Assembly: GCF_003019035.1 (NCBI RefSeq)
Contig: NZ_CP027447.1
From: Escherichia coli
GTDB lineage: Bacteria; Pseudomonadota; Gammaproteobacteria; Enterobacterales; Enterobacteriaceae
Strand: one strand, 5' to 3'
DNA length: 64,000 nucleotides
Part shown: one piece after another, positions 4,295-64,000 of the stretch
Position numbering within the stretch: position 1 is the stretch's first letter
Layout: every line of letters starts with the position of its first letter
Program-made: the position numbers and the translations under genes
The notes under the pieces: model-generated
Told to the model about the DNA's origin: nothing
What the model saw: the letters and a program-made list of their open reading frames with translations, nothing else
Database searches by the model: none

Positions 4295-4594
4295 ATGACT
4301 GAACTCGCGCAATTACAGGCCAGTGCCGAACAGGCAGCGGCCTTATTGAAAGCAATGAGCCACCCTAAACGGTTGCTGATTCTGTGCATGCTTAGCGGTT
4401 CCCCCGGCACCAGCGCGGGAGAGCTGACTCGCATTACCGGACTGAGTGCCTCTGCGACATCACAGCATCTCGCTCGTATGCGGGACGAAGGGCTTATCGA
4501 CAGCCAACGGGATGCCCAACGCATTCTATATTCCATTAAAAATGAGGCGGTAAATGCCATTATCGCCACCCTGAAAAATGTCTATTGTCCGTAA
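4295..4594 (+). CDS. ygaV: ArsR-family transcriptional regulator
   Basis: 99-aa ORF with ArsR-like HTH; position before ygaP. Confidence 0.85.
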   Translation: MTELAQLQASAEQAAALLKAMSHPKRLLILCMLSGSPGTSAGELTRITGLSASATSQHLARMRDEGLIDSQRDAQRILYSIKNEAVNAIIATLKNVYCP

Positions 4595-4603
4595 GGAGTC
4601 ACT

Positions 4604-5128
4604 ATGGCTTTGACAACCATTTCGCCGCATGATGCACAAGAATTAATCGCACGCGGCGCAAAGTTAATCGATATTCGTGACGCTGATGAATATCTTCGTG
4701 AACATATTCCTGAAGCAGATCTGGCTCCATTATCCGTACTGGAACAGTCAGGTCTTCCGCCTAAATTACGTCGCGAGCAAATTATATTCCACTGCCAGGC
4801 AGGTAAACGCACCAGTAATAACGCCGATAAATTAGCAGCGATTGCCGCCCCCGCAGAAATCTTTTTACTCGAAGATGGGATTGATGGCTGGAAAAAAGCA
4901 GGATTACCAGTAGCGGTAAATAAATCTCAACCCTTGCCGTTAATGCGCCAGGTGCAGATCGCTGCGGGTGGTTTAATATTAATCGGCGTTATACTGGGTT
5001 ATACCGTAAATAGCGGTTTCTTCTTATTAAGCGGCTTTGTTGGTGCCGGGTTACTGTTTGCAGGAATTAGCGGTTTTTGTGGGATGGCAAGGTTGTTAGA
5101 TAAGATGCCGTGGAACCAACGAGCTTGA
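4604..5128 (+). CDS. ygaP: membrane-anchored rhodanese-domain protein
   Basis: 174-aa ORF; rhodanese-like N-terminus with CQAGKR active-site loop and hydrophobic C-terminal helices. Confidence 0.85.
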
Positions 5129-35076: not shown

Positions 35077-35220
35077 CACAACCTCTGTCAGTCATAAATT
35101 TATGCCGGACAAGATAGCACTTTCGTCAGGAAGATGGTGTTGGCGTTGCAATTTTACGAGGAGGATTCAGAAAAAAGCTGATTAGCCAGAGGGAAGCTCA
35201 CGCCCCCCTCTTGCAAATAG

Positions 35221-36306
35221 TTACTGCACGCGCGCCAGCGCCACGGCTTGTCCTAACTGCCAGACCGCCATTGCGTAATGGGTGCTGTGGTTATAACGGG
35301 TAATGGTGTAGAAGTTCGGCAGACCGTACCAGTACTGGTAACCTGTTCCAACATCCAGACGCAGCAGGCTGGCTTGTTGATGGTTGCCCAGCGGCTGCTG
35401 TGGCGTTAAACCTGCCGCGGCAAGTTGTGAAATGCTGTACTTGGTTTTGAAGCCATTTGGCAAGCCTGGAGCCTGACCGTTTGCCATCACCGCAACCTGA
35501 TCACCTTTCACCCAGCCGTGCGCTTTGAAATAGTTCGCCACACTACCAATGGCATCAACCGGATCCCACAGGTTGATATGCCCGTCGCCGCTGAAATCTA
35601 CCGCATATTGTTTGTAAGACGACGGCATAAACTGTCCGTAGCCCATCGCCCCGGCAAAGGAACCTTTCAGATTGAGCGGATCGTCCTGCTCATCGCGCGC
35701 CATCAGCAGGAAAGTTTCCAGCTCGCCAGAGAAATACTCCGCGCGGCGTGGGTAGTTAAATGACAGCGTTGCCAGCGCATCGAGGATACGGGTTTTCCCC
35801 ATCACGCGCCCCCAACGGGTTTCAACGCCGATAATCCCGACGATAATTTCCGGCGGTACGCCATACACCTGCCACGCGCGATTCAACGCATCTTCATACT
35901 GATTCCAGAAAACCACACCATTCTGCACGTTGTCCGGCGTAATAAATTTTTTGCGATAACGCAGCCATGCGCCGTTCGGACCTGATGGCGGTTTCACCGA
36001 TGTGGTTGGTGCCTGGTTATCCATCAGCCGCAGTACCGAATCCAGACGTTTCGCCTGAGAGAGAATTTCCTGCAACTGCTGACGATCGAAACCGTGTTTG
36101 TTCACCATTTTGTCGATGAACTGCTGGGCATTCGGGTTATTGGCGAAGTCACCGCCCATCTGCATCACATTGTGCTGCGGCTCAAGCAGGAAGCCGCCAG
36201 ACGGCGTTCCGGTGGTCGTTTCAGTCTCAGTAGGTTTTGGCTTGCTGCTACAGGCGGCAAGCAACACAAAAAGGGGAAGCAATGTTACATAACGACGCTT
36301 GAACAT
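35221..36306 (-). CDS. mltB: membrane-bound lytic murein transglycosylase B
   Basis: ORF 35221..36411; start at MFKRRYVTLLPLFVLLAACSS (lipoprotein signal), 361 aa. Confidence 0.9.
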   Translation of the reverse strand: MFKRRYVTLLPLFVLLAACSSKPKPTETETTTGTPSGGFLLEPQHNVMQMGGDFANNPNAQQFIDKMVNKHGFDRQQLQEILSQAKRLDSVLRLMDNQAPTTSVKPPSGPNGAWLRYRKKFITPDNVQNGVVFWNQYEDALNRAWQVYGVPPEIIVGIIGVETRWGRVMGKTRILDALATLSFNYPRRAEYFSGELETFLLMARDEQDDPLNLKGSFAGAMGYGQFMPSSYKQYAVDFSGDGHINLWDPVDAIGSVANYFKAHGWVKGDQVAVMANGQAPGLPNGFKTKYSISQLAAAGLTPQQPLGNHQQASLLRLDVGTGYQYWYGLPNFYTITRYNHSTHYAMAVWQLGQAVALARVQ

Positions 36307-36544
36307 GAGGGGTCCATTTAACAGATTCAACCAGGGGCAAGTATGGTAAAGCATCCCGCCCCGCACAAGGAAGCGGTAGTCACTGCCCGATACGGACTTT
36401 ACATAACTCAACTCATTCTCCTCACTACCTTCTTTATATAAACTTTCAAAATAAAATATTTATCTTTCATTTTGCGATCAAAATAACACTTTTAAATCTT
36501 TCAATCTGATTAGATTAGATTGCCGTTTGGTAATAAAACAATAA

Positions 36545-38082
<1,538 letters not shown>

Positions 38083-49935: not shown

Positions 49936-50193
49936 CATTTTCATCCCTTTACACGCAATCAACGCAGTGTACTGCACCGTTTGCCGATTGTCCTTGCGCA
50001 ATCGGCGGGAAAAATATTCAGGTGACCGGTTTCACAAATATAAAAAATGAACAATTAACTCTCTTGCTTATTTAGTGACAACTATTCATGATTTTGTGAA
50101 ACCGGTTTCCTAATTCCGTTTCAGCATCGGCATTTTCCGTCACGTCGACTGATAACAACTACATCTACCCTACTGATAACAGGATAAAATCCG

Positions 50194-53084
<2,891 letters not shown>

Positions 53085-53091
53085 GTAACCG

Positions 53092-53157
53092 TGCCGGATG
53101 CGGCGTGAACGCCTTATCCGGCCTACAAGGCCCGATAAGCGTTGCGCATCGGGCAAT
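53092..53157. repeat. REP pair (BIME) downstream of ascB
   Basis: GCCGGATGCGGCGTGAACGCCTTATCCGGCCTACA followed by an inverted partner GGCCCGATAAGCGTTGCGCATCGGGCA. Confidence 0.75.
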
Positions 53158-53170
53158 CTGGCGTTTGGCA

Positions 53171-53422
53171 TCAGAGCTGGTTCACCCCATCAAGAACATC
53201 CCCCTTTATCAAGCAACGCTGCGTCAGCGCCAGATCTTCCGATTGCGGGTCGCGCCCGGCGATGGGTTTGAGGACGAGTTTACGGTTGGGGGTATAAGTA
53301 AAACGCGTGAGCGCGGGATAGCTTAACTTGCCAAACCAGCCGTGAACACGCTGCCATTTGGCGTCTTTTACCTGATACAGACTGGTTATCCAGTAACCGG
53401 AATCAAACTGCATATCCAGCAA
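53171..53422 (-). pseudogene. orphan ORF fragment, possibly the 3' remnant of a gene truncated by the adjacent insertion
   Basis: 83-aa ORF with no convincing ribosome-binding site; an in-frame stop lies just upstream of its first ATG; sits between the ascB REP and the prophage-like region. Confidence 0.3.
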
Positions 53423-53636
53423 TTGCGTGTGGCCATTCCTTGATCAGACATGAGATAAATGAAGGGGGATCCGTGAGATAAATAACGAATTGGAGTGGGT
53501 TAACATGGGTTCTGGTGAACAGAACTGAAATTCTTTTTCGTTATACGATAGATAAGTCGGACATTGAAATCATCCTTTCTGGCAACTTAGAATCGAGTTT
53601 GCTGAAACATGACTCGTAACAAAAAGGATGATTCCA

Positions 53637-53798
53637 ATGACTACTCAAAACAATAAGCATGATAGCCTGGATTACTCAGAAAAGCCCAAAAGCAAGCACA
53701 TCGTGACGTTCGAGCGCGATTCCGGTAGAAAAGGAGAATCGTCTTCCTCTGCCAATAAAAACACTATACCGGCAGCTCCTGCTCCGGGGAAAAAATAA
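53637..53798 (+). CDS. hypothetical small hydrophilic protein (53 aa)
   Basis: Hand-translated MTTQNNKHDSLDYSEKPKSKHIVTFERDSGRKGESSSSANKNTIPAAPAPGKK; AAGGA about 10 nt upstream of the ATG; below the ORF-track cutoff. Confidence 0.25.
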   Translation: MTTQNNKHDSLDYSEKPKSKHIVTFERDSGRKGESSSSANKNTIPAAPAPGKK

Positions 53799-53801
53799 AC
53801 A

Positions 53802-54434
53802 TCATTCATCGTTCGTTGCACGAACGCGCCTGATCTCCACTCTGGCAATCTGATCTGCTGGAATATAGGTTGCCAGAGCTCCCCAGTACTTATCAACCAC
53901 GCCTTTATACTCTTCCCATTCGTTACTGCCTGAAGGGCTGCTGTGTGTGACGTAAAGAACCATATCGCCTTTATTCCCCAGGGTAAACGGACCGTTAGGC
54001 CACTCTTCAAAGTTCCCTGGCAGTCGTGACATCATACCGGAACCATCGCGAAGAATCACTCTGACCTCGGTGACGCTGAAGTCTGTTTGATCAAACATTG
54101 CCTGCCATGCTGAGCTGGTATCGTCAGACCATGAAATATCATTATTCCACAGTAATCTGTACATCCATTTGCGACCGTACCTGCGCCACCACGCACCACA
54201 TGTAACAGCACACAGAAGTGCTGGTGGTGTTGCCAGCCAGGCATTCAGACCTGCCCACATAACAGCCTGGTAAGCCATCATTGCTGTCAGGCCAAAAATT
54301 AGCGAAGAAAAAGTCACCTCAATGGGTTTGTGCTGATCCTTCAGCCCCACATTCGCAATAAAATACCCAATATAGCCACTGGTCAGAGTCACCAGTGTTG
54401 CCCATGGCAAATTTAACAACGAAACGTCAAACAT
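53802..54434 (-). CDS. prophage-encoded membrane protein, unknown function (3 predicted TM helices plus about 120-aa soluble domain)
   Basis: ORF 53802..54512; start trimmed to ATG 54434 (MFDVSLLNLPW...), which has an AGGGAG Shine-Dalgarno 6 nt upstream; lies just past the post-mor terminator. Confidence 0.6.
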   Translation of the reverse strand: MFDVSLLNLPWATLVTLTSGYIGYFIANVGLKDQHKPIEVTFSSLIFGLTAMMAYQAVMWAGLNAWLATPPALLCAVTCGAWWRRYGRKWMYRLLWNNDISWSDDTSSAWQAMFDQTDFSVTEVRVILRDGSGMMSRLPGNFEEWPNGPFTLGNKGDMVLYVTHSSPSGSNEWEEYKGVVDKYWGALATYIPADQIARVEIRRVRATNDE

Positions 54435-54471
54435 ATTTTCTCCCTGCATCCTGAATACTACAGAGAGAGCA

Positions 54472-54508
54472 TAAAAAAAGCACGGTAAGGGGTCTACCGT
54501 GCTTTTAT
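54472..54508 (-). terminator. intrinsic terminator after mor (end of the early operon)
   Basis: Minus strand reads GCACGGTA-GACCCCT-TACCGTGC followed by TTTTTTT; A-tract on the other side makes it potentially bidirectional. Confidence 0.8.
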
Positions 54509-54548
54509 ACAATAAGGAGATTTTTGAAAGGACTTTAACAAGCAGGAA

Positions 54549-54947
54549 TTATCTGGATTTGTTAACGTCTCTCGTCTCTTCTGGCAGATCTTCATCAAAC
54601 AACCTGCCCTGCATCCGATCCAGTTCTTCTTTTCTGACCCGCTTAACCACGCTGTAGACCCACTGAAGCGAAACACCAAACTTGCGGGCCAGTTCATGGT
54701 GGTTGCGTCCGTTAAACTCCCGGAAGATTTCCCGGTCGCGCTGACTGACCTTCCATACCATGCCCATCGGGAAATAAACGTTTTGCCCGCCCCAGACCTG
54801 CATCATGCGGTTCGCGACGGCCTGACCAATCTGGTCGGCAATTGCGGGCTCAATATCAATAATCTCGCGAACGGTCTCAGAGGTATGCTGTGCCAGTTCC
54901 ACCAGGAGTTCCGGCCCTTTACTTCGAAACTGATTCAGGTCGCTCAT
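54549..54947 (-). CDS. mor: Mor-family middle-operon transcription activator
   Basis: 132-aa ORF; C-terminal HTH (HHELARKFGVSLQWVYSVV) and position after GemA as in Mu; family assigned from memory. Confidence 0.75.
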   Translation of the reverse strand: MSDLNQFRSKGPELLVELAQHTSETVREIIDIEPAIADQIGQAVANRMMQVWGGQNVYFPMGMVWKVSQRDREIFREFNGRNHHELARKFGVSLQWVYSVVKRVRKEELDRMQGRLFDEDLPEETRDVNKSR

Positions 54948-55371
54948 GTTTTACTCCCGCAGCTCTGCGCTGCCACTTCTTCAGTTTCTCAATAACACTG
55001 CTTGCCTGTTCTGTATTGAGCCAGCGCAGGGCGCTGATGCCCGTTTCCCGCTTGATCCACCGCGCTAATGCATTTTCTGAACGGTCACGAACAATGCCGG
55101 CAGCAGCCATTTCAAGCCATAGCGCACGGATTTTCCTGGACTGCGGATGGTTATCCAGCGGTAAACCGGAGCTGGCTTTTCCGGCAGGCTTAACGCGAAA
55201 GCCTTTCCTTTTCATGGATTCCAGCACGCAGTTTAGTTGTGTGGTATCCATTCCTTTGGTTGAGGCTTTACCGGTCAGCCCCTGTAACATCTGGCGGTAG
55301 GTGTCTTCATCCATACCCAGTTCATTACGGGCAATATGAATGAGCTGGATAAGACGTTGTTTAGTCATCAT
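54919..55371 (-). CDS. gemA: GemA (Mu gp16)-like protein
   Basis: ORF 54919..55410; likely start at MMTKQRLIQLIHIARNELGMDEDTYRQ; resembles the Mu GemA/DUF1018 family by recall; overlaps mor start. Confidence 0.65.
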   Translation of the reverse strand: MMTKQRLIQLIHIARNELGMDEDTYRQMLQGLTGKASTKGMDTTQLNCVLESMKRKGFRVKPAGKASSGLPLDNHPQSRKIRALWLEMAAAGIVRDRSENALARWIKRETGISALRWLNTEQASSVIEKLKKWQRRAAGVKHERPESVSK

Positions 55372-55576
55372 CGTTGCTCCTTTTACCTGCGCCACCGATA
55401 TAATCGACATATAAAGGAAGCGCCACAGGCCAGCACAGGAACATCACCGACCAGCTAATCCAGTAGCCGGCACCACTGTAACGTGAATAAAACCCTGAAC
55501 GGCGGTGCAGTTCAGCAGTACACCAACCGACAAAACAATACCAGAACAGGGCACATACAACAGATTCAGCCGTCAT
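55361..55576 (-). CDS. hypothetical small membrane protein
   Basis: ORF 55361..55732; plausible start at internal MTAESVVCALFWYCFVGW; two hydrophobic segments; start uncertain. Confidence 0.35.
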   Translation of the reverse strand: MTAESVVCALFWYCFVGWCTAELHRRSGFYSRYSGAGYWISWSVMFLCWPVALPLYVDYIGGAGKRSNDDD

Positions 55577-55796
55577 TCTGAATATCCCCCCAACTGATAT
55601 GAATATTACGGGCAGCAATGACAGGGTCGTTATCCCACCATGCACCTGACATGTATTTTTCAACCTGTTCGCGTCCGGCAATAACACCAATTGTGATCCC
55701 CGGCCTGACGTTCTTAAAAAAGGCGCGGGCAAAAAGGTATCTGGCAGATATTCGGCAGGCTTTTAATTTCCGGCTGTTACCTGATAGCGTAATCAT
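55566..55796 (-). CDS. hypothetical protein (76 aa), translationally coupled to the upstream gene
   Basis: ATG overlaps the stop of the upstream 227-aa gene (ATGA arrangement). Confidence 0.4.
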   Translation of the reverse strand: MITLSGNSRKLKACRISARYLFARAFFKNVRPGITIGVIAGREQVEKYMSGAWWDNDPVIAARNIHISWGDIQNDG

Positions 55797-56476
55797 CTGG
55801 CCTCCAGTTTCTGTTGTTCCTGCCCACTGACCGGGCGGTGCAGTCTGACGTTCTGCCCTTCACGAAACCCCGCATAGCGCGAGGCGTCACCATTGCGGCT
55901 TCTTCCCGGTTTACGCGCCCTGGTGGTTTGCGTTTGCGGGTATTTATGTTCCAGCCACTGCTGCATCAGTTCACGTTCGTCATCAGTCAGGGCGAAGGAC
56001 TGTATTTCACTGATAACGGCCAGCACCCAGCCTTCAGCAAACTGGTCTCCACGGCTGGTGCGGGTGGCGGTTTTTATTCTTTTGTTCTGTGTGCTGATAT
56101 ACTGCTGACGCGCCTTTTTCAGCTGGCGGGCCAGCACTTCCCAAGTGTACGCAGCCAGTGCGGCCCGTTCCCGGTTGCCGTAGAATCCCACACCCGGATA
56201 TGTGCCGGGGTGAATGATGGAGTTAACACCAAATGCCTCGCGGATGATGTTCATCAGGCCCAACATATAGCGCGGTGGACGGAGGCTGCCTGTCGGCCAG
56301 TAGTGGCTGATGGTTTCATCAATATCACTCATGGCAATGTCGGAATGTGTGATGCCGTGAACATCCATCAGTTTACGGGCACGGCGCAGTGCCAGAGCGG
56401 CCTCGTGCGGGTTGCCGGATGCAGCCAGCGCCAGCAGTTTTTTCAGTTTCTCAATGTGTTTATCCAGGTCTGTCAT
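55793..56476 (-). CDS. conserved phage protein (DUF2786-like N-terminus)
   Basis: 227-aa ORF; N-terminus KLKKLLALAASGNPHEAALALRRARKLM resembles the DUF2786 signature as I recall it; 4-bp overlap with the upstream gene. Confidence 0.5.
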   Translation of the reverse strand: MTDLDKHIEKLKKLLALAASGNPHEAALALRRARKLMDVHGITHSDIAMSDIDETISHYWPTGSLRPPRYMLGLMNIIREAFGVNSIIHPGTYPGVGFYGNRERAALAAYTWEVLARQLKKARQQYISTQNKRIKTATRTSRGDQFAEGWVLAVISEIQSFALTDDERELMQQWLEHKYPQTQTTRARKPGRSRNGDASRYAGFREGQNVRLHRPVSGQEQQKLEAR

Positions 56477-56778
56477 TGTTCGGTATCTCCGGTGTACATG
56501 ACGCCCAGCCGTGCGGCAAGGCGTTCCAGTTTTTTCTGTTTGTGGAAGTCAATCAGCCGGCCCATCCCCTGAAGACGCAACTGCTCTGTCATGATTTCCA
56601 CGTCTGCCAGCTCTGCCGCGAGGTCACTTTCGCTGCCCTGTCCGTTCAGGTTGCGGGCAGCACTGGCCGCCAGTTCGGCGGCCTCTTCTGTCAGTTTCAG
56701 GGCCTGTGCATCCGGCCCGAAACGCTGCAGAGCCAGACGATAGAGGGCAGTGCGTGTGAGTATGGTGTTCCGTGTCAT
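56473..56778 (-). CDS. hypothetical phage protein (101 aa)
   Basis: ORF in the tightly packed early operon, same strand. Confidence 0.45.
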   Translation of the reverse strand: MTRNTILTRTALYRLALQRFGPDAQALKLTEEAAELAASAARNLNGQGSESDLAAELADVEIMTEQLRLQGMGRLIDFHKQKKLERLAARLGVMYTGDTEQ

Positions 56779-56787
56779 GCCGCGCCC

Positions 56788-57060
56788 TCAGTGCTTCCGG
56801 TCGACGGTGATGTGCAGGCCGCCTTCTGCAGTGGTTTCCATCCGGTACGGCACCTCATGCTCTGCCGTGTGGGTGAGTGTGTTCACCAGTACCTGCAGGG
56901 CAGCCTCCTTTCCGTTGGTCGTCACAATGGCCTGAGCGGCCATGCTGATTAGCGCTGTCAGGACGTGCTTCACATCGGTGAGGTCGCGGCATTCACACTC
57001 GTTGACATAGTGTTCAACAAGGGTTCGGGTGCGCTGTCGTGCTTCCTGTGGGGTAATCAT
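56788..57060 (-). CDS. hypothetical phage protein (90 aa)
   Basis: ORF in the early operon; 4-bp overlap with the upstream zinc-ribbon ORF. Confidence 0.45.
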   Translation of the reverse strand: MITPQEARQRTRTLVEHYVNECECRDLTDVKHVLTALISMAAQAIVTTNGKEAALQVLVNTLTHTAEHEVPYRMETTAEGGLHITVDRKH

Positions 57061-57251
57061 TGCGAGTCCTCCCTGTCAGGGCGGGAGAATTCCATGACGG
57101 GCACGTCCGCTGAAAAATGTTGGCTGCAGTACGGACAGACCAGGGTGACGCGCACTGCAGGTACGTGGTACTTACCGGACATCACGGCGATGGCGCTGTG
57201 AAAACGCAGGGCTGTTATATCCCTCTCGCACTGAATACATTTAAATATCAT
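57057..57251 (-). CDS. small zinc-ribbon protein (64 aa)
   Basis: Two Cys pairs, CIQC and CPYC, about 40 residues apart. Confidence 0.45.
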   Translation of the reverse strand: MIFKCIQCERDITALRFHSAIAVMSGKYHVPAVRVTLVCPYCSQHFSADVPVMEFSRPDREDSQ

Positions 57252-57348
57252 GATTTAATTCTCCTCTGTTTCCGGCGTGCAGAAGCCCACGGCGCTGACG
57301 CCGGAATAAAAAAGAAAATGTTTTTATTAAATAATTAACGTGGTGTGT

Positions 57349-57879
57349 TTACTGCACATCCTGCTCAAAAGGAATTATTGAAAAATCCTCAATATCACTT
57401 TTTATGGTAATACCGGGAATATTTTTCACGGCCTCTTTTTCATTCAGAATGGCATCTTTATTTATTTCCTCTTTTACACGAATAAAGCGCTCAAGCCCCA
57501 GACGTCTCAGTAGTTCAATAACATTATCCGCTCCACGGATACTGACTGATGGCGGACGGTTTCGCCACTGCACCTCGCCGGTGGTGAGGTTAGCGAACTT
57601 CACCTTCCCGTTGCCGGTCAGTTCATCACGGTGTGCCTCACACCATGTCTGAATACCGGACTGCAGTTCGGCCATGCGTTTTTTCAGGCTCTCGGTGAGC
57701 GGGGCATAACGTGCGGTGATATCGCCAATGGCGTCATTCATTTCTGTTTCAGCCCTGACCAGTTCACGTTGTGCGTCACCGAGCAGTCTGATTCCCTCAA
57801 TGACCTCTTCGCGTGTCCCCGGTACCCAGAGTGCCGCTGCGGACTTGATACGTTTTGCCCCTTTTGTACTTTTTGCCAT
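57349..57879 (-). CDS. gam: Gam-like host-nuclease inhibitor (Mu Gam family, DNA-end binding)
   Basis: 176 aa; strong similarity to Mu Gam as I recall it (...KRIKSAAA...ETEMNDAI...WCEA.RDELT..GKVK.ANL.TG.V.WR.RPPSVSIRG...RLGL.RFIR.K.EINK.AIL...GITVKS.IEDFSIIPFEQ). Confidence 0.8.
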   Translation of the reverse strand: MAKSTKGAKRIKSAAALWVPGTREEVIEGIRLLGDAQRELVRAETEMNDAIGDITARYAPLTESLKKRMAELQSGIQTWCEAHRDELTGNGKVKFANLTTGEVQWRNRPPSVSIRGADNVIELLRRLGLERFIRVKEEINKDAILNEKEAVKNIPGITIKSDIEDFSIIPFEQDVQ

Positions 57880-57906
57880 ATCTTATGATTTCTCCGGTTG
57901 TGCTGA

Positions 57907-58176
57907 TTACCACAAAGATTCCGGCCACACGACGCGACAGCCGTGCAGTTCGAAAACGCCCTGACGGAAATATCCCCTGTGGTCATGTCCGGTATACAGA
58001 TAACAGGCCTTTCCCTGCTCAAGCATGCGCATGCAATGCGCACTTCGGGAAACGCGGATGACAGGTTTGTTACCCCTGATGGTGATGCTTTGTACATCCG
58101 TGTTCGTCGCCTTAAGCGCCATAATGGCTGACTGCACTTTGCTGATTTGCTGGTTGATACCTGTGGTGGATTTCAT
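57907..58176 (-). CDS. hypothetical phage protein (89 aa)
   Basis: ORF between the partner ATPase gene and gam. Confidence 0.45.
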   Translation of the reverse strand: MKSTTGINQQISKVQSAIMALKATNTDVQSITIRGNKPVIRVSRSAHCMRMLEQGKACYLYTGHDHRGYFRQGVFELHGCRVVWPESLW

Positions 58177-58178
58177 TA

Positions 58179-59372
58179 TTAAACCCCTTTGACAACGTCA
58201 GCGTTGACCTGTGGAACCCCGATTTCAGCGGCCAGATTCATGGCGGCTATCACCAGGTTACTGACGGCCAGCGGATACAACAGGCTGACCATATTTTTAC
58301 GATGACTTCCCGGATTGCTCAGGCGGGCACGTATGGCATCCACTGCACTGGCGTCCATAATGTCCGTCAGTTGTTTACCTGCCCGTTGCAGTTTGAACGT
58401 CAGAAACTCTTCAAGGTTATTGTCCAGAGGCAGAAGTTCGACCACCTCACAGCGCTGAACGACTTCACGGACTTCCATATTGCGTTCAGACAGTTTTGTC
58501 GCCAGTTCCGGCTGGCCAATCAGCACGATGGACAGCAGTTTTTTGAAACCGGACTCCAGCTCAAAAAAGCGTTTGAGGTGTTTCAGTGTCGGAATGGGCA
58601 GACTGTGGGCCTCCTCAATCACCAGAACGTGGCTGAACCCCGCCTGGCTGCTGTCTTTCAGGACGCGATGCAACTGGCGAAAGCGGGCGTCCTGACTGCG
58701 TCTGATGCTTTCCAGTGGTGCGATGGTACTGATAATGGCTTCGGCAATAGCTGCTGCCTTCAGGGTTTTCCCTTTCACATCGTTGTCTTCCATAGCGATG
58801 ATGTATGGCTCGATAACAATTACCGGCGCATTCTCGCGGTTGATACGTTCAGTCAGGTCGCGGCGCAGCGTGGATTTACCCGCACCGGACTCACCGATGA
58901 CGGCCATAAACCCACCATGACGGGCTGTCTGGTACAACGCCTCACGCACGTAGCGAATGTCCGGGGTGGTGAACACATCATCAGAACCCTGCATGGCTTC
59001 GTCGGCGAACGGGTCACGGAAAAGACCAAACGCTTTTTTGGTTGCTGGAAATAACACCTGTTTTTTGAGTAACATATTCTCTTCCTCACTGAGGCTCGTT
59101 TTATCTGTGGTACCCGCTGTACGGGGCGTGGCCGCGCCCTGTACAGCATCAAAACTCTTCGCTGTATCAATCCCCTGACTTTCCAGCCAGGACGCAAGAC
59201 GCCGGCGCACTTCTCCGGGGCTGGTGCGGGGCCACGCGTTATGATTCACAATCTGGGCCAGCGTGGCCTCAGAAACATCGACAGCTCTCGCCACCACCGC
59301 CTGTGGAATACGGGCCTCTTTCAGTTGCTGCTTCAGTACCAGCATGTTTCCCTCCTCAGTTGCCGTTAACAA
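58179..59372 (-). CDS. transposition ATPase (MuB/TniB-like AAA+ target-DNA activator)
   Basis: 397 aa; Walker A GESGAGKST; immediately downstream of and overlapping the transposase gene. Confidence 0.75.
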   Translation of the reverse strand: MLTATEEGNMLVLKQQLKEARIPQAVVARAVDVSEATLAQIVNHNAWPRTSPGEVRRRLASWLESQGIDTAKSFDAVQGAATPRTAGTTDKTSLSEEENMLLKKQVLFPATKKAFGLFRDPFADEAMQGSDDVFTTPDIRYVREALYQTARHGGFMAVIGESGAGKSTLRRDLTERINRENAPVIVIEPYIIAMEDNDVKGKTLKAAAIAEAIISTIAPLESIRRSQDARFRQLHRVLKDSSQAGFSHVLVIEEAHSLPIPTLKHLKRFFELESGFKKLLSIVLIGQPELATKLSERNMEVREVVQRCEVVELLPLDNNLEEFLTFKLQRAGKQLTDIMDASAVDAIRARLSNPGSHRKNMVSLLYPLAVSNLVIAAMNLAAEIGVPQVNADVVKGV

Positions 59373-61125
59373 TGCTGATAACGCTGCTGCGGGCCGGCGT
59401 GGTCAGCGTGGCCATGACTTCATCCAGTGCGGCTTCCGGTACGCCGTCCGGGTACTGTGCCGTTAACTGGCGGTAATGTTCCGGCGTCCAGGTAAGGCCG
59501 TCGGCGCTGAACTTATCGCGCAGGGCTTTCGCGGCCTCCACATGAGTCATGGGACGTTGTTCAGTGCGCGGTCTGCGTACATCAGAGGCCTGACCGCGCT
59601 TCGGTATACAGGCCGGAAGTGTGGCGTCATCAATATGTTTATACGGGTCAAGCCGCCCGCCGAACGGCAGCGCCTTCGCCTTGCGTGCGGCAGCTGCATC
59701 TGCGGCGTTGTCTGTACCGGTGACCAGCGCTTCGGTTTCTTTTGCCGCCGTCTGTGCCGGTGTTTCCGGCAGGGCTTTGTAACTTTCGCCAAATACCGCC
59801 GCGCCTTCAGCAAAGCCAAACTCGTTCTTTCTGACCTCTTCGACCAGGAAGAACGTCTCGTGGCCGTCCTCACCGGTCAGAACCACCTGTGCCACATCGC
59901 TGCGCCATGGGTTACGGGTAATCATCAGTTTTTCACCAACCAGTACGCCCGGTACCGTTGATACGTCAAATTCAGTGCCCCGGAACGAGACACGAAGTTT
60001 TGGCGTGACTTTGCGGAGTTCTGGTGTCGTCACAGCCAGTTCACGGCATACCTCAACGGAAGGCGCTTTTTTCAGCTGCTCAGCAGTAATCTTCAGCCAG
60101 ATATCCGTGCGGGTTTTACCGTGGCGGCTGTGAACAGCTGTTGCGTTAAAGTGGCTACGCCATTTCGCGGCCAGCGCGTTGAGTTCTTCCAGACTGTGAA
60201 CCGGCCGGAACTTCAGACCCGGCTCCAGCTTGCGTTCGATAATGTCACGCGCCTTTTCCACCTGTCCGGTGGCGCGGGCGTTATGCGGCTTGTGCGCTAT
60301 CAGGTCGATGCCCAGTGAGCGGCACATGTTTTTCGTCATACCCGCGGTGTTTGCCGAGCCGGGGTCGAGATAGAGTATTTTCGGCACGCCGTGCAGCACG
60401 TCTGCGCCGCCACGCTCCTGCATGGCGTTGATAAGCACAGAACACAGGTTCTCACCGGATTCCGCACCCGTCACATACTCAACGTAAATCCAGCCGCTGG
60501 CATGGTCGGTAATCTCGTAACTCCACACGCGGTCACTGGCGATACGGGCAAGGTTAGCGGGCTTGTTCTTGTAGAACTTCGCGCTGTCCATCACCTGCAG
60601 CCCTTTGTGTCCATTGCTCAGGTAGTAAAGCGTGCAGAGAGAGGCATCAATCTGCCAGACATGATTGGGATGCAGACTGGCCACTTCGGTATGCGGCGCA
60701 GGGGCATCCAGTTGTTCCGGGTGCAGGCCATAGTTACGCAGGGCACGGCTGATAGCATCTTCGGACAACGGGAAAAACTCACCGGTGGTTTCATCTGTTC
60801 TGCCTGCGGAGATAAAGCCGTTAGCCCGCAGGGTTTCCACTGCATCTGCGATGGAATAGAGACGCTTACCGTTCTTGCGGGTGGCCTCACGTAGTGTGGC
60901 AGATATCAGCGCGGCTTCGTCGCGGGTCAGGGCGCTGCGCCCGGCATCGGCGCGTTTTTTGCGTTTATCAGTCACAGAGACCTCCTTCAGCCTGCGCAGC
61001 AGAGTGGCGCGGGACATGCCAAGTTCAGCACAGGCGGCGTCATATATTGCACCACGTTTACCATGCCCCGCGTCACGTGCCGCGCGGGCGACATAAACCA
61101 GTCGTTCAGTCAGGGCAGCATTCAT
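59356..61125 (-). CDS. DDE transposase (Mu A-like, rve/integrase-core type)
   Basis: 589 aa; N-terminal HTH region, central DDE-type core (HVWQIDASL..., LYLDPGSANTAG..., distal E), C-terminal extension; paired with the AAA+ ATPase gene. Confidence 0.8.
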   Translation of the reverse strand: MNAALTERLVYVARAARDAGHGKRGAIYDAACAELGMSRATLLRRLKEVSVTDKRKKRADAGRSALTRDEAALISATLREATRKNGKRLYSIADAVETLRANGFISAGRTDETTGEFFPLSEDAISRALRNYGLHPEQLDAPAPHTEVASLHPNHVWQIDASLCTLYYLSNGHKGLQVMDSAKFYKNKPANLARIASDRVWSYEITDHASGWIYVEYVTGAESGENLCSVLINAMQERGGADVLHGVPKILYLDPGSANTAGMTKNMCRSLGIDLIAHKPHNARATGQVEKARDIIERKLEPGLKFRPVHSLEELNALAAKWRSHFNATAVHSRHGKTRTDIWLKITAEQLKKAPSVEVCRELAVTTPELRKVTPKLRVSFRGTEFDVSTVPGVLVGEKLMITRNPWRSDVAQVVLTGEDGHETFFLVEEVRKNEFGFAEGAAVFGESYKALPETPAQTAAKETEALVTGTDNAADAAAARKAKALPFGGRLDPYKHIDDATLPACIPKRGQASDVRRPRTEQRPMTHVEAAKALRDKFSADGLTWTPEHYRQLTAQYPDGVPEAALDEVMATLTTPARSSVISIVNGN

Positions 61126-61128
61126 TGG

Positions 61129-62043
61129 TTATGCCTCCAGCCCGTTAATCTGTGGCGTCGGCTCAGTCAGCCATGAAGGCGCGACATCGCCTGTTGGCTC
61201 GTCCGGCAGGTCAAATGTGGAGCGCAGGCTACGCGCTGTGCTTTCCAGTTGACAGACCAGGCCTGCCATGAAGTCTCTGGGGGTATCAATCATGTTTTCA
61301 GCACAATATGCGCACAGCGTCTCAAAAGCGCTGGACAGTCGAACGGCGATAGCAGATTCCGCCTCAACCGCTAATGCTGTCACTTCCGCCCGCAGCTTCT
61401 TAACCTCTTCATCAGGCTCAGGCGGCTGAATACGGGATTTCTTCTCCAGTTTTGTGGAAAGCGAGTCGATTTTTTCGTTTTTGTCGGCCAGCACGCGCTG
61501 TTGTGCTGCGTTGGTTTCGCGGGCTTCGCGCAGGGCCTGACGCAATTCACGTACTGACATGCGATCAACGTCGTCAAGCGTCAGGCCGGCAACTGTGCCG
61601 CCGTCGGCCAATTCATCAAGTTCTTCATTATCCAGAACCATCAGGTCGTACAGTTTGGCTTTCCCCAAAACGCTCAACGTTGAGCGTTTTGTTGGCTCAT
61701 CACCTTCTCCCAAAAACTTCATACTGGCTTGCATCATGCGGCGAGCAACTTGTGGTGCAAGTCCGAGTTCATTTTCTAAAATGTTTGTAAAATCACCGTG
61801 TGGCTCATTTTCTTTTAAGATGATCAGCCGTTTACCCGCTTCCAGCATAGATTCAGCACTCTGCGCCATATAAAAACGTGCTTCGTGAACAATGCGATCA
61901 CGTTCATAAGGCAGTCCATCACCAAACTGCTGCATAATTTCCATGCGATGCTGTGTCATAGCGTTCAAATTGACATTGATGTTATCTGACAGCGGAACCT
62001 CAACATTCAGTTCAGTGTTAACGGGTGATTTGGTGCGTCCCAT
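61129..62043 (-). CDS. hypothetical phage protein (304 aa), predicted coiled-coil-rich
   Basis: ORF immediately upstream of the transposase gene; charged heptad-like central region. Confidence 0.45.
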   Translation of the reverse strand: MGRTKSPVNTELNVEVPLSDNINVNLNAMTQHRMEIMQQFGDGLPYERDRIVHEARFYMAQSAESMLEAGKRLIILKENEPHGDFTNILENELGLAPQVARRMMQASMKFLGEGDEPTKRSTLSVLGKAKLYDLMVLDNEELDELADGGTVAGLTLDDVDRMSVRELRQALREARETNAAQQRVLADKNEKIDSLSTKLEKKSRIQPPEPDEEVKKLRAEVTALAVEAESAIAVRLSSAFETLCAYCAENMIDTPRDFMAGLVCQLESTARSLRSTFDLPDEPTGDVAPSWLTEPTPQINGLEA

Positions 62044-62053
62044 TGATTACTCC

Positions 62054-62362
62054 TTACAAACGACTACCTGAAATAACTCGTTGGTTGATTTCGTTAATAC
62101 GATCCTGTGCACGCGCCATCTCGTGACTGTGAGCCATGGCGATCTGTAGTAACTGGATTCCCGGTGCGAAACGTCCGTTCTCTAATTTCATGGCCAGTCC
62201 CTCTTCAATAAGGGTATTAAGTGCTCGATTGATATTCGCCGGGGACTCCCCCAGGGCTGATGCCAGTTCACCGTTAGAAACACCGTTCAGAGCATGACCG
62301 CGTAGAGCTTTGAGTACACGTAGGATGCGGCTCCCGGAACTGGAAATATTTACTTTACTCAT
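62054..62362 (-). CDS. small winged-HTH protein (IclR-like DNA-binding domain only)
   Basis: ORF 62054..62425; likely start at MSKVNISSSGSRILRVLKALRGH...; start uncertain. Confidence 0.45.
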   Translation of the reverse strand: MSKVNISSSGSRILRVLKALRGHALNGVSNGELASALGESPANINRALNTLIEEGLAMKLENGRFAPGIQLLQIAMAHSHEMARAQDRINEINQRVISGSRL

Positions 62363-62414
62363 GTCACATTTCCATTTTTGCAATATGTGATAACCTGTTG
62401 CATATGTGGAAAAT

Positions 62415-62603
62415 TTATGCCGCATTTGACGTGGGTTTTAATCCCAGTTTTACGGCAATTTCATGGGCTTTGCCGTAACGAGCTTTGGTCTGTCCATTGA
62501 GAACACGATAGACCTCATTGCGGCTGTAGCCGTGTTCTTCGGCCCAGCGGGTAAACGTGATACCACGCTGACGGAAGAGATTTTTAACTTGTTCGGAAGT
62601 CAT
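62415..62603 (-). CDS. ner: Ner-like DNA-binding protein (Mu Ner/Nlp family)
   Basis: 62 aa; aligns with the Ner/Nlp HTH pattern (G.t..rWaee.G.s...vyrvL.G....kG..IA..LG.kP); first gene of the early operon, divergent from the repressor. Confidence 0.65.
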   Translation of the reverse strand: MTSEQVKNLFRQRGITFTRWAEEHGYSRNEVYRVLNGQTKARYGKAHEIAVKLGLKPTSNAA

Positions 62604-62640
62604 TGTTGTCTCCTTTGTTGATGCAATGATGTTTGTTTTA

Positions 62641-62695
62641 TATGTGATAGATTATGTGAACTATTGTTCTCATTGTCAATGAGGTTTATGTGAAT
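62641..62695. promoter_or_regulatory. candidate operator repeats in the repressor/ner divergent intergenic
   Basis: TATGTGA occurs three times (62641, 62653, 62687), the last two as TTATGTGAA; the third contains the repressor GTG start. Confidence 0.35.
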
Positions 62696-63115
62696 TTTGA
62701 TTCTCTTTGCGCGTCGCGGTTCAAAGCTGAGCGTTCGCGGTTATCACTCAAGCAGGCTGAAGTAGCAGCCCTTTGTGGCGTTTCAAGAGAAATGTGGGGG
62801 AAATATGAACGAGGGGTTGCTGTTCCCGGAGGTGAGTTACTTGCAGCCTTTGCAAGAATTGGGGCCAATGTACAGTTCATTCTTACCGGGGAGTCATCAG
62901 GTATAACTTTATCACGTGATGAAATGGAGTTACTGCAGCACTACCGGCAAGCACCGTTACAGGTCAAAGGTTCAGTTTTGTCGGCTTTGACTACTGGCTC
63001 CTCCAGAGAACGGGCGGAACAGGTTATTCATGGAGATGTTCTGGGGAATGTTATCAAAGGTAACGTAACCATAGGAACAGGTGGAATAATGAACAAAAAT
63101 ACCAAGAGAAGATGA
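62690..63115 (+). CDS. XRE-family (Cro/C1-type HTH) phage repressor candidate
   Basis: 141 aa, GTG start; N-terminal HTH (LSLKQAEVAALCGVSREMWGKYERG); divergent from the ner-transposase operon. Confidence 0.7.
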   Translation: MNFDSLCASRFKAERSRLSLKQAEVAALCGVSREMWGKYERGVAVPGGELLAAFARIGANVQFILTGESSGITLSRDEMELLQHYRQAPLQVKGSVLSALTTGSSRERAEQVIHGDVLGNVIKGNVTIGTGGIMNKNTKRR

Positions 63116-64000
63116 GTAAAGAGAAGCAAACAGTTAACGGGGATGTGGGTAACGTTGTCAGCGGTGATGTTACCATTCATAACTATTCTGCTGACATACT
63201 TCCTTCTGCCCAGCAACCAATTTCGTTGCTGCAAAAACGCGATTTACACAGATTGATGGATGAATTGGTTGATCTGGGGGAAAGTAAGCGCGAGCTATGG
63301 ATGACGATCCACACGAAACTTAATACCAAAACAGTTAATGAAATGACTGCGGCTGATTATCATGGTGCGGTTGAGATCCTTCAGAGATATGCACAACAGA
63401 TCCAGAATATGAAGGACTGTAATCTTCTGGTCAGCAAAATAATGGCGCTTACTGACCCTGGGTATCGTCTTGACCGTGACAGATACTGTCTGAAGCATTT
63501 CGGTACAACCCATCTTAAAGGCCTGGACAAAGAGCAGTTGCAGGCTGTGTTTGGTTATTTTGATGATCTGCTGAATATTCGTGATGAGAGTAAAACTCTA
63601 TCACCTCCATCGGAAAGCGGTGCAAAATCAGTCGCAACTGTACCAACCAGAAGCCGGAAGCCTCATGTAGTAGTGTTGGGGGGAGCGTTAGTTCTTGTAG
63701 CAATATTTTTCGTGGGAATGATTGTGTTCGCTGGTAAATGGGGAAATGCTAAAGCAGTAGCTTCTACTGAAACCAGCGTTTTTAACATTAAAACCAACGA
63801 CAAAATAATAGAAGATTCCATCCCCGCACTGCGCAGCATGTTTCCAGGATTAAATAAGTACTCAGATGATTTCCATTCGGTTTCAAGCTACAAGCAAAAA
63901 ACGGGCTGGCATACCCTTAAATTTACTGTATCAGCAAAGGCATCCGTCCCCGAAAATTATAGTGTTAAGGGCAAGGTTTGTTACATTAACATAAACCCTG
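63112..64000 (+). CDS. hypothetical single-pass membrane protein, 3' partial (runs off window end)
   Basis: Hand-translated open frame from ATG 63112 with no stop before 64000 (absent from ORF track because incomplete); ATG overlaps repressor stop (ATGA); TM helix VVVLGGALVLVAIFFVGMIVFAG. Confidence 0.6.
   Translation, partial: MSKEKQTVNGDVGNVVSGDVTIHNYSADILPSAQQPISLLQKRDLHRLMDELVDLGESKRELWMTIHTKLNTKTVNEMTAADYHGAVEILQRYAQQIQNMKDCNLLVSKIMALTDPGYRLDRDRYCLKHFGTTHLKGLDKEQLQAVFGYFDDLLNIRDESKTLSPPSESGAKSVATVPTRSRKPHVVVLGGALVLVAIFFVGMIVFAGKWGNAKAVASTETSVFNIKTNDKIIEDSIPALRSMFPGLNKYSDDFHSVSSYKQKTGWHTLKFTVSAKASVPENYSVKGKVCYININP

What the first reader, a model, noticed from the sequence alone, without database searches (positions are those of the whole stretch)
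53171..53500. Possible element end next to an orphan ORF fragment
Between the ascB REP and the prophage genes lies an 83-aa minus-strand ORF with no ribosome-binding site, consistent with the 3' remnant of a gene interrupted by transposition. Just beyond it are imperfect direct repeats ATGAGATAAATGAAGG (about 53448-53463) and CGTGAGATAAATAACG (about 53473-53488) that could be terminal transposase-binding sites.
Basis: inference. Interest (0 to 1): 0.45.

Follow-up and report, generated by a model that had tools for sequence, protein, structure and literature searches.

The report
Left end of BcepMu-like transposable prophage

Summary
Both parts of the finding hold. The 83-aa minus-strand ORF (53171-53422) is the tail of a 270-nt 3' remnant (53171-53440) of a 251-aa hypothetical gene. 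That gene lies intact between ascB and hycI in 1,462 of 5,426 complete E. coli genomes, and the remnant is 270/270 identical to strain TCM3e1. Chromosomal homology stops at 53440. A transposable prophage starts at T53441 (5'-TGATCAGAC...).

They share a 10-nt core, TGAGATAAAT, with a 23-nt period. On their own they are not statistically remarkable. Their significance comes from context:
- They sit 11 and 34 nt from the mapped terminus.
- G[AC]GATAAAT recurs, inverted, at the same offsets at the right end of five sibling prophages. Each sibling is at a different locus and flanked by a perfect 6-bp duplication.
- The same layout occurs at the ends of phages BcepMu, phiE255 and B3, where 23-bp terminal repeats are published as putative transposase sites.

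The transposase is 68% identical to BcepMu's.

Not shown: this copy's own right end, which lies beyond the window, and any actual protein binding.

Verdict: interpretation supported, feature already known, low interest.

The parts
53171..53440 (-). 3' remnant (89 codons plus stop) of a 251-aa chromosomal hypothetical gene disrupted by the prophage.
   Evidence: 270/270 nt identical to the 3' end of the intact gene in TCM3e1, L001 4272-4541. The intact gene is full length and single copy in 1,462 of 5,426 complete E. coli genomes. No Pfam or NCBIfam match.
53435..53440 (.). Predicted left copy of the 6-bp target-site duplication (ATTCCT).
   Evidence: The empty site reads GTGGCC[ATTCCT]TTGTAAATCC. 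Five of five sibling prophages have perfect 6-bp duplications abutting the same termini. The second copy of this insertion lies beyond the window, so it is inferred, not seen.
53441..53463 (+). Prophage left terminus (5'-TG) and outer 23-nt terminal repeat unit, with core TGAGATAAAT at 53451-53460. Predicted transposase-binding site.
   Evidence: The junction is mapped by the empty site and by the same end at other loci. The motif is at positions 12-20 of both ends in E. coli siblings, BcepMu, phiE255 and B3. The 23-bp terminal repeats are described in PMC2920897.
53464..53486 (+). Inner 23-nt terminal repeat unit, with core TGAGATAAAT at 53474-53483. Predicted second transposase-binding site.
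   Evidence: Exact 10-nt core, 23 nt from the first. It is conserved at positions 35-43 of both ends across the family. It is retained in the 85%-identical DEF2 variant, while the sequence just inside it diverges.
53441..64000 (-). Left arm of the BcepMu-like prophage, which continues beyond the window. The early operon is read towards the left end. It comprises DUF3102 61129-62043, transposase 59356-61125, AAA+ transposition ATPase 58179-59372, Gam 57349-57879, a pyrophosphohydrolase-family gene 56473-56778, DUF2786 55793-56476, GemA 54919-55410, Mor 54549-54947 and an unknown membrane-like ORF 53802-54512. A 56-aa ORF at 53628-53798 lies on the + strand, and the putative repressor at 62690-63115 is also on the + strand.
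   Evidence: Pfam hits: rve, AAA_22, DUF3102, Mor, GemA. The stretch 53441-62656 is collinear at 95.5% with complete 38.1-38.3-kb prophages in G749 and S14. The transposase is 68% identical to BcepMu gp09, 69% to phiE255 gp40 and 56% to B3 TnpA. BcepMu has the same gene order.

Best explanation
Window 53441 is the left end of a roughly 38-kb transposable prophage of the BcepMu/B3 type (Bcepmuvirus-like, with a Tn552-related DDE transposase). The phage transposed into a 251-aa hypothetical gene between ascB and hycI.

Shown:
- The junction position.
- The disrupted gene and its intact allele.
- The 5'-TG terminus.
- Two 23-nt directly repeated units starting at the terminus, mirrored at the right end of sibling copies.
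- 6-bp target duplications in those siblings.
- Many unrelated insertion sites.

Inferred mechanism: the rve-family transposase TnpA (59356-61125) binds the two adjacent 23-nt units at each end and pairs the ends in a transpososome. It nicks at the terminal ...CA-3' and joins the 3' ends to target DNA with a 6-bp stagger. The target is presented by the AAA+ ATPase (58179-59372). Repair or replication then yields the 6-bp duplication (ATTCCT predicted here) and leaves the promoterless 3' part of the target gene beside the left end. The 83-aa ORF is therefore a dead fragment, and its TTG start is fortuitous.
For: - Homology to E. coli chromosomes ends at 53441 at the latest, and the same phage end occurs elsewhere from 53441 on.
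- The intact 251-aa allele is in TCM3e1 and is full length in 1,462 genomes. The remnant is 270/270 identical.
- The full-length left end is in 117 genomes at many loci, including rhaS, gabP, yfaV, rstB, tdh, xylR, fimbrial and flagellin genes.
- Five of five siblings with both ends read have TGATCAG...GCGCATCA flanked by perfect 6-bp duplications: CATTCC, GATATT, GCTTGC, GGGATG, GTTGCG.
- G[AC]GATAAAT is at positions 12-20 and 35-43 of both ends.
- The same layout is found in BcepMu, phiE255 and B3.
- The cores are conserved in a diverged variant.
- Pfam finds rve, AAA_22, Mor and GemA, and the transposase is 68% identical to BcepMu's. BcepMu shows the same inverted left arm with Mor next to the end.
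- Literature: 23-bp imperfect direct repeats at both ends of phiE255 and BcepMu are proposed as the transposase target (PMC2920897). A 6-bp duplication and TG...CA ends are the footprint of B3/Tn552-family transposases (PMC8705779).
Against: - No binding or transposition assay exists for this element, and the papers read here present the BcepMu/phiE255 sites only as putative. The sites are assigned by position and conservation only.
- The right end and second duplication of this particular copy lie outside the window. The same insertion is not in 5,426 complete E. coli genomes or in IMG/VR, so ATTCCT is a prediction.
- The repeat by itself is not statistically unusual in 64 kb.
- The first base is ambiguous by 1 nt from the alignments alone (T53441 could be target or element). 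It is assigned to the element because all siblings start with TG directly after a 6-bp duplication.
Confidence: 0.92

Rival explanations
1. The two repeats are mainly something other than transposase sites. Candidates are the left-end pac (headful packaging) signal, or operator or host-factor sites controlling read-out at the end. In that case the transposase would recognise other terminal bases.
For: [quoted passage not shown] In Mu, by my own recollection and not checked here, pac overlaps the left-end transposase sites, so a dual role is plausible. Two GATC sites (53442-53445, 53468-53471) lie in the left-end units but not in the right-end units.
Against: The motif occurs at both ends, inverted, at identical distances from the cleavage point, and in four phage lineages. 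That is the geometry expected for a transposase. A pac site is needed at one end only.
Confidence: 0.05
2. The repeat is a chance similarity with no function, and the 83-aa ORF is an independent small gene.
For: Exact 10-mer repeats within 30 nt occur at 4 loci in the window, and shuffles give up to 7. The motif count of 2 compares with 1.43 expected.
Against: Conservation of both cores at fixed offsets at both ends across E. coli variants, BcepMu, phiE255 and B3. The ORF is 100% identical to the tail of a 251-aa gene present intact in 1,462 genomes, and it has no spaced RBS.
Confidence: 0.02
3. The element is a site-specifically integrated prophage or island (integrase/att), or an ordinary IS or transposon end, rather than a transposable phage.
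For: A 'recombinase family protein' gene sits next to the right end of the sibling prophages. NCBIfam gives weak sub-threshold IS481/IS21 transposase similarity for the rve protein.
Against: There are many unrelated insertion loci, each with a different 6-bp duplication. That recombinase gene (573-582 nt) sits beside oppositely oriented tail-fibre and tail-fibre-assembly genes, where a tail-fibre invertase would be expected (my inference). Siblings carry full head, tail and lysis modules in 38 kb. IS-family scores are far below the cut-offs (67 versus 224 bits).
Confidence: 0.01

Closest known systems
Burkholderia phages BcepMu and phiE255 (genus Bcepmuvirus)
   Same: - The transposase is 68-69% identical.
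- The layout is the same: the early operon reads towards the left end, with Mor and GemA next to it, followed by lysis, head and P2-like tail modules.
- The ends are TG...CA.
- Each end has two 23-nt direct repeat units, with G[AC]GATAWWT at positions 12-20 and 35-43.
- The repeats are published as putative transposase sites (PMC2920897).
   Different: - The host is E. coli.
- The repeat core is GATAAAT rather than mostly GATATTT, and the terminus is TGAT rather than TGAA.
- The cargo differs at both extremities: a 56-aa ORF and a roughly 210-236-aa ORF at the left, and an invertible tail-fibre segment with a recombinase gene at the right.
- Nucleotide similarity is limited to about 69% in the transposition genes.
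Pseudomonas phage B3 (Beetrevirus) and the Tn552-related transposase group of transposable phages
   Same: - The transposase is 56% identical.
- The ends are TG...CA.
- The target duplication is 6 bp (PMC8705779; seen here in five siblings).
- Related terminal repeat units are present.
- Mor lies next to the left end.
   Different: B3 belongs to a different genus (Beetrevirus) and its virion genes were not compared here. Its repeat cores are more diverged (GAGAAATA, GCGAAATT). Tn552 itself is a small staphylococcal transposon, not a phage. From memory, not verified here, its transposase binds two 23-bp direct repeats at each end.
Coliphage Mu (Muvirus)
   Same: It is also a transposable temperate phage with TG...CA ends, multiple end-binding sites for the transposase, an ATPase partner, Mor, GemA and Gam, and near-random insertion that disrupts host genes.
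   Different: - Mu makes a 5-bp duplication (PMC8705779), whereas this element makes 6 bp.
- The early region is in the opposite orientation relative to the left end.
- The transposase here hits only Pfam rve, and Mu was not among the records listed by the tblastn of the phage collection.
- The end-site sequence does not match the Mu consensus as I recall it; this was not tested.
Escherichia phage PhiKM (PQ738613) and E. coli prophages in G749, S14, AREA_487, 98194 and IAL7250
   Same: They are 95-100% identical over the shared DNA, with identical left-end repeats.
   Different: - The insertion site differs. The ascB-hycI insertion of this window is not present in any of 5,426 complete genomes.
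- The immunity region beyond 62656 differs from G749 and S14.
- The match to the PhiKM record does not cover the first 1.1 kb of the left arm.

Membership tests
BcepMu/B3-type transposable phages (Tn552-related transposase) | DDE (rve) transposase homologous to BcepMu gp09 and B3 TnpA | tested here: met
   Pfam rve at 35.6 bits, above the 32.6 cut-off. tblastn gives 68% identity to BcepMu, 69% to phiE255 and 56% to B3 over at least 98% of the length.
BcepMu/B3-type transposable phages (Tn552-related transposase) | Adjacent AAA+ transposition ATPase (TnpB, ExeA-like) | tested here: met
   Pfam AAA_22, E = 3.9e-20. Siblings annotate it as an ExeA family protein. The matching stretch is about 69% identical in nucleotides to BcepMu gp08.
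BcepMu/B3-type transposable phages (Tn552-related transposase) | 5'-TG...CA-3' termini | tested here: met
   The window's left end starts with TG at 53441-53442. Five siblings end in ...CA. The right end of this copy lies outside the window.
BcepMu/B3-type transposable phages (Tn552-related transposase) | 6-bp target-site duplication | tested here: met
   Perfect 6-bp duplications in five of five sibling prophages. For the window copy only the left copy (ATTCCT, 53435-53440) is visible. The literature criterion is in PMC8705779.
BcepMu/B3-type transposable phages (Tn552-related transposase) | 23-bp imperfect direct repeats at both ends, inverted between ends | tested here: met
   The period is 23 nt. 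The same offsets are seen at right ends and in BcepMu, phiE255 and B3. Described in PMC2920897.
BcepMu/B3-type transposable phages (Tn552-related transposase) | Early operon inverted relative to Mu, with Mor and GemA adjacent to the left end | tested here: met
   Mor is at 54549-54947 and GemA at 54919-55410, both on the minus strand and 1.1-2 kb from the end. BcepMu genes 1 and 2 are arranged the same way.
BcepMu/B3-type transposable phages (Tn552-related transposase) | Insertion at many unrelated sites (transposition, not site-specific integration) | tested here: met
   117 genomes hold the full-length end, and the listed records show many different disrupted genes.
BcepMu/B3-type transposable phages (Tn552-related transposase) | Transposase physically binds the terminal repeats, and the phage replicates by transposition and packages host flanks | not testable with these tools
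   Needs footprinting, in vitro transposition, or sequencing of virion DNA ends.
Mu proper (Muvirus, MuA-type) | 5-bp target duplication | tested here: not met
   6 bp in five of five siblings.
Mu proper (Muvirus, MuA-type) | MuA-type transposase with Mu-specific DNA-binding and C-terminal domains | tested here: not met
   Only rve was detected by Pfam. No Mu record appears among the records listed by the tblastn of the phage collection.
Integrase-mediated prophage or genomic island | Conserved att site and an integrase at one end | tested here: not met
   The insertion sites and 6-bp flanks differ in every case. The only recombinase gene in the siblings is a 573-582-nt one beside the invertible tail-fibre genes.

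The most novel reading that the evidence does not exclude
The two ends are functionally asymmetric through Dam methylation. The left-end units carry GATC sites (53442-53445 in the terminal TGATCA, and 53468-53471 between the cores; the second is kept in the diverged DEF2 variant). The right-end units carry none, and the sibling prophages encode a DNA adenine methylase. Methylation state could therefore gate transposase binding or packaging at the left end only, as Dam does for IS10 and IS50 ends (the IS10/IS50 comparison is from my own knowledge, not checked here).
Probability: 0.07. Interest if true: 0.4.

Novelty: already known. Interest (0 to 1): 0.12.

Why it matters
Scientifically it matters little. 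It is a textbook-style junction of a known family of transposable phages, and near-identical copies are already present in over a hundred public E. coli genomes and in a deposited phage record.

The practical value is in annotation:
- It fixes the prophage boundary to the base (T53441).
- It shows that the 83-aa ORF should be annotated as a pseudogene fragment of the ascB-hycI hypothetical gene, not as a gene.
- It gives a compact signature for delimiting BcepMu-like prophages in Enterobacteria, whose ends carried no feature in any record examined here. The signature is TGAT, then N7-8, G[AC]GATAAAT, N14, G[AC]GATAAAT, plus a 6-bp duplication.

Tried and rejected
- Motif count in the window: GMGATAAAT occurs twice against 1.43 expected, so the count alone is not significant.
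- Genome-wide style test of 10-mer direct repeats within 30 nt: 4 loci against 1.4 in shuffles, so the repeat alone is unremarkable.
- Search for further copies of the motif deeper in the ends, like the third sites at Mu's ends: only 2-mismatch matches with no shared position between the ends, so two sites per end.
- Search for the same insertion to read its own right end: none in 5,426 complete E. coli genomes, and no exact junction in IMG/VR. One representative per species makes a hit unlikely, and sibling copies already answer the question.
- Function of the disrupted 251-aa gene and of the two end-proximal phage ORFs: no Pfam or NCBIfam family.
- Whether the 145-bp ColV-plasmid match is a mini-element: it is a solo left-end fragment lacking the terminal 9 nt, with no second end or other phage DNA nearby.
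- Terminator and promoter scan around the junction: nothing beyond chance.
- Tn552 '23-bp repeats': not found in the searchable library, so it is left as recollection only.

Full report
**What is in the sequence**

The window is E. coli DNA. ascF lies at 50194-51651 and ascB at 51648-53084, followed by a REP-like palindromic stretch. The 83-aa minus-strand ORF lies at 53171-53422 and starts with TTG. ATGAGATAAATGAAGG is at 53450-53465 and CGTGAGATAAATAACG is at 53472-53487. They share an exact 10-nt core, TGAGATAAAT, at 53451-53460 and 53474-53483, 23 nt apart.

Taken alone the repeat is not statistically notable. Exact 10-mers repeated within 30 nt occur at 4 loci in the window, against 1.4 on average in shuffles. 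The degenerate core GMGATAAAT occurs twice in 64 kb against 1.43 expected, although both copies are here.

**Locating the junction**

Megablast of 52900-53900 against 5,426 complete E. coli genomes splits the query cleanly. Bases up to 53441 match the ascB-hycI region of many strains, at 100% in TCM3e1. Bases from about 53434 onward match a different locus in strain G749. No genome holds both halves together.

TCM3e1 carries an intact 756-nt hypothetical gene (251 aa, minus strand) between ascB and hycI. The window is 270/270 identical to its last 270 nt. The three-way alignment gives:
- Empty site: GTGGCCATTCCT-TTGTAAATCC
- Window: GTGGCCATTCCT-TGATCAGACATGAGATAAATG...

The 83-aa ORF is therefore the tail of an 89-codon 3' remnant (53171-53440). 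On the minus strand the frame is closed by a stop codon inside the phage's terminal TGATCA. The intact gene is full length and single copy in 1,462 of 5,426 genomes. It has no Pfam or NCBIfam family.

**What was inserted**

From 53441 to 62656 the window is collinear, at 95.5% identity, with prophages of 38.1-38.3 kb in G749 and S14. The genes in the window, all read towards the junction, are:
- a DUF3102 protein
- an rve-family transposase (59356-61125)
- an AAA_22 ATPase
- Gam
- a pyrophosphohydrolase-family protein
- a DUF2786 protein
- GemA
- Mor
- an unknown ORF

These assignments rest and on the sibling annotations. The siblings continue with lysis, head and P2-like tail modules, and an invertible tail-fibre segment with a recombinase gene at the far end.

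The transposase is 68% identical to BcepMu gp09, 69% to phiE255 gp40 and 56% to B3 TnpA. BcepMu has the same inverted left arm, with Mor as gene 1. The closest deposited phage is Escherichia phage PhiKM at 95%.

**Testing the repeats as end sites**

The full-length left end occurs in 117 genomes, next to many different disrupted genes. I read both ends of five sibling prophages. Each is bounded by 5'-TGATCAG...GCGCATCA-3' and flanked by a perfect 6-bp direct duplication:

| Strain | Target | Duplication |
|---|---|---|
| G749 | gabP | CATTCC |
| IAL7250 | rhaS | GATATT |
| S14 | DUF4153 gene | GCTTGC |
| AREA_487 | fimbrial gene | GGGATG |
| 98194 | yfaV | GTTGCG |

This places the first phage base of the window at T53441. 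It also predicts ATTCCT (53435-53440) as this insertion's duplication.

Read inward from the terminus, the right ends carry GCGATAAAT or GAGATAAAT at positions 12-20 and 35-43. These are exactly the offsets of the two left-end cores. BcepMu, phiE255 and B3 show the same architecture at both ends. It consists of TG at positions 1-2 and G[AC]GA(T/A)A(A/T)(A/T)T at 12-20 and about 35-43. A diverged E. coli variant (DEF2, 85% identity) keeps both TGAGATAAAT cores while the sequence immediately inside them changes.

**Literature**

[quoted passage not shown] A later paper states that B3 makes a 6-bp duplication. It describes 6-bp repeats as the footprint of B3/Tn552-family transposases, and says TG...CA ends are conserved in Mu-like and B3-like phages (PMC8705779). 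The KS10 paper repeats the TG...CA criterion for BcepMu relatives (PMC2628397).

**Mechanism**

Shown:
- the junction
- the disrupted gene
- the termini
- the mirrored 23-nt units
- the 6-bp duplications
- the many insertion sites

Inferred from family knowledge: TnpA binds two units per end and synapses the ends. It cleaves at the terminal CA-3' and transfers the strands into a target held by the ATPase, with a 6-bp stagger. Binding itself is untested for this phage.

**Rivals**

- A pac or regulatory role for the repeats is possible as an additional function. It does not explain their mirrored presence at both ends.
- Chance is excluded by cross-lineage conservation.
- Site-specific integration is excluded by the varied sites and duplications.

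**Limits**

- The right end of this copy lies beyond the window.
- The same insertion is absent from the complete-genome set and from IMG/VR.

**Verdict**

The feature is the ordinary left junction of an already known kind of transposable prophage. Interest is low, and the value is in precise annotation.

Noticed in passing
window 53450-53594; L011 (NZ_CP059908 plasmid p1) 3001-3144; L012: A 145-bp piece of this phage's left end (positions 10-154, 89% identical, both repeat cores intact but the terminal 9 nt missing) is present, unannotated, in about 140 records. Most are about 190-kb plasmids from poultry, and some are chromosomes. In the two copies read it sits between a LysR-family gene and an IS3 remnant. 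No other phage DNA and no second end lie nearby, so it looks like a fossil solo end.
   Followed up: partly
window 53442-53445 and 53468-53471: Two GATC (Dam) sites lie inside the left-end repeat units, and there is none in the first 50 nt of the right ends. The inner one is kept in the diverged DEF2 variant. Sibling prophages encode a DNA adenine methylase (L004 10143-10907). This may be an end asymmetry, or it may mean nothing.
   Followed up: no
window 53562-53581 / 53620-53639: A 20-nt inverted repeat (90% complementary, 38-nt loop) has a 3' arm covering the Shine-Dalgarno and start of the 56-aa plus-strand ORF (53628-53798). A sigma-70-like site (53564-53593, 10/12 matches) overlaps the 5' arm. 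This may be translational control of a small end-proximal cargo gene.
   Followed up: no
window 62657-64000: Collinearity with the G749 and S14 prophages stops at 62656. The region holding the putative repressor (141-aa HTH ORF, 62690-63115, plus strand) differs, which suggests a different immunity type on an otherwise 95%-identical early arm.
   Followed up: no
L002 (NZ_AP027159) 4299-5026; ascB-hycI interval in other strains: The ascB-hycI interval is variable. Some strains carry a higB toxin gene and an adjacent helix-turn-helix (HigA-like) gene between ascB and the 251-aa gene. K-12-type strains lack most of the 251-aa gene, with homology to the window ending near 53202.
   Followed up: no
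L005 (NZ_CM130729, strain IAL7250) 35112-36686: The sibling prophage whose left end is 100% identical to the window has an internal deletion that truncates the transposase and removes the regulatory and lysis region. Its two ends and the 6-bp duplication (GATATT) in rhaS are intact, so it is a stranded defective copy.
   Followed up: partly
window 50148-50157 / 50172-50181: An exact 10-nt direct repeat, ACTGATAACA, 24 nt apart, lies just upstream of ascF. This may be regulatory sites of the asc operon. It was not examined.
   Followed up: no
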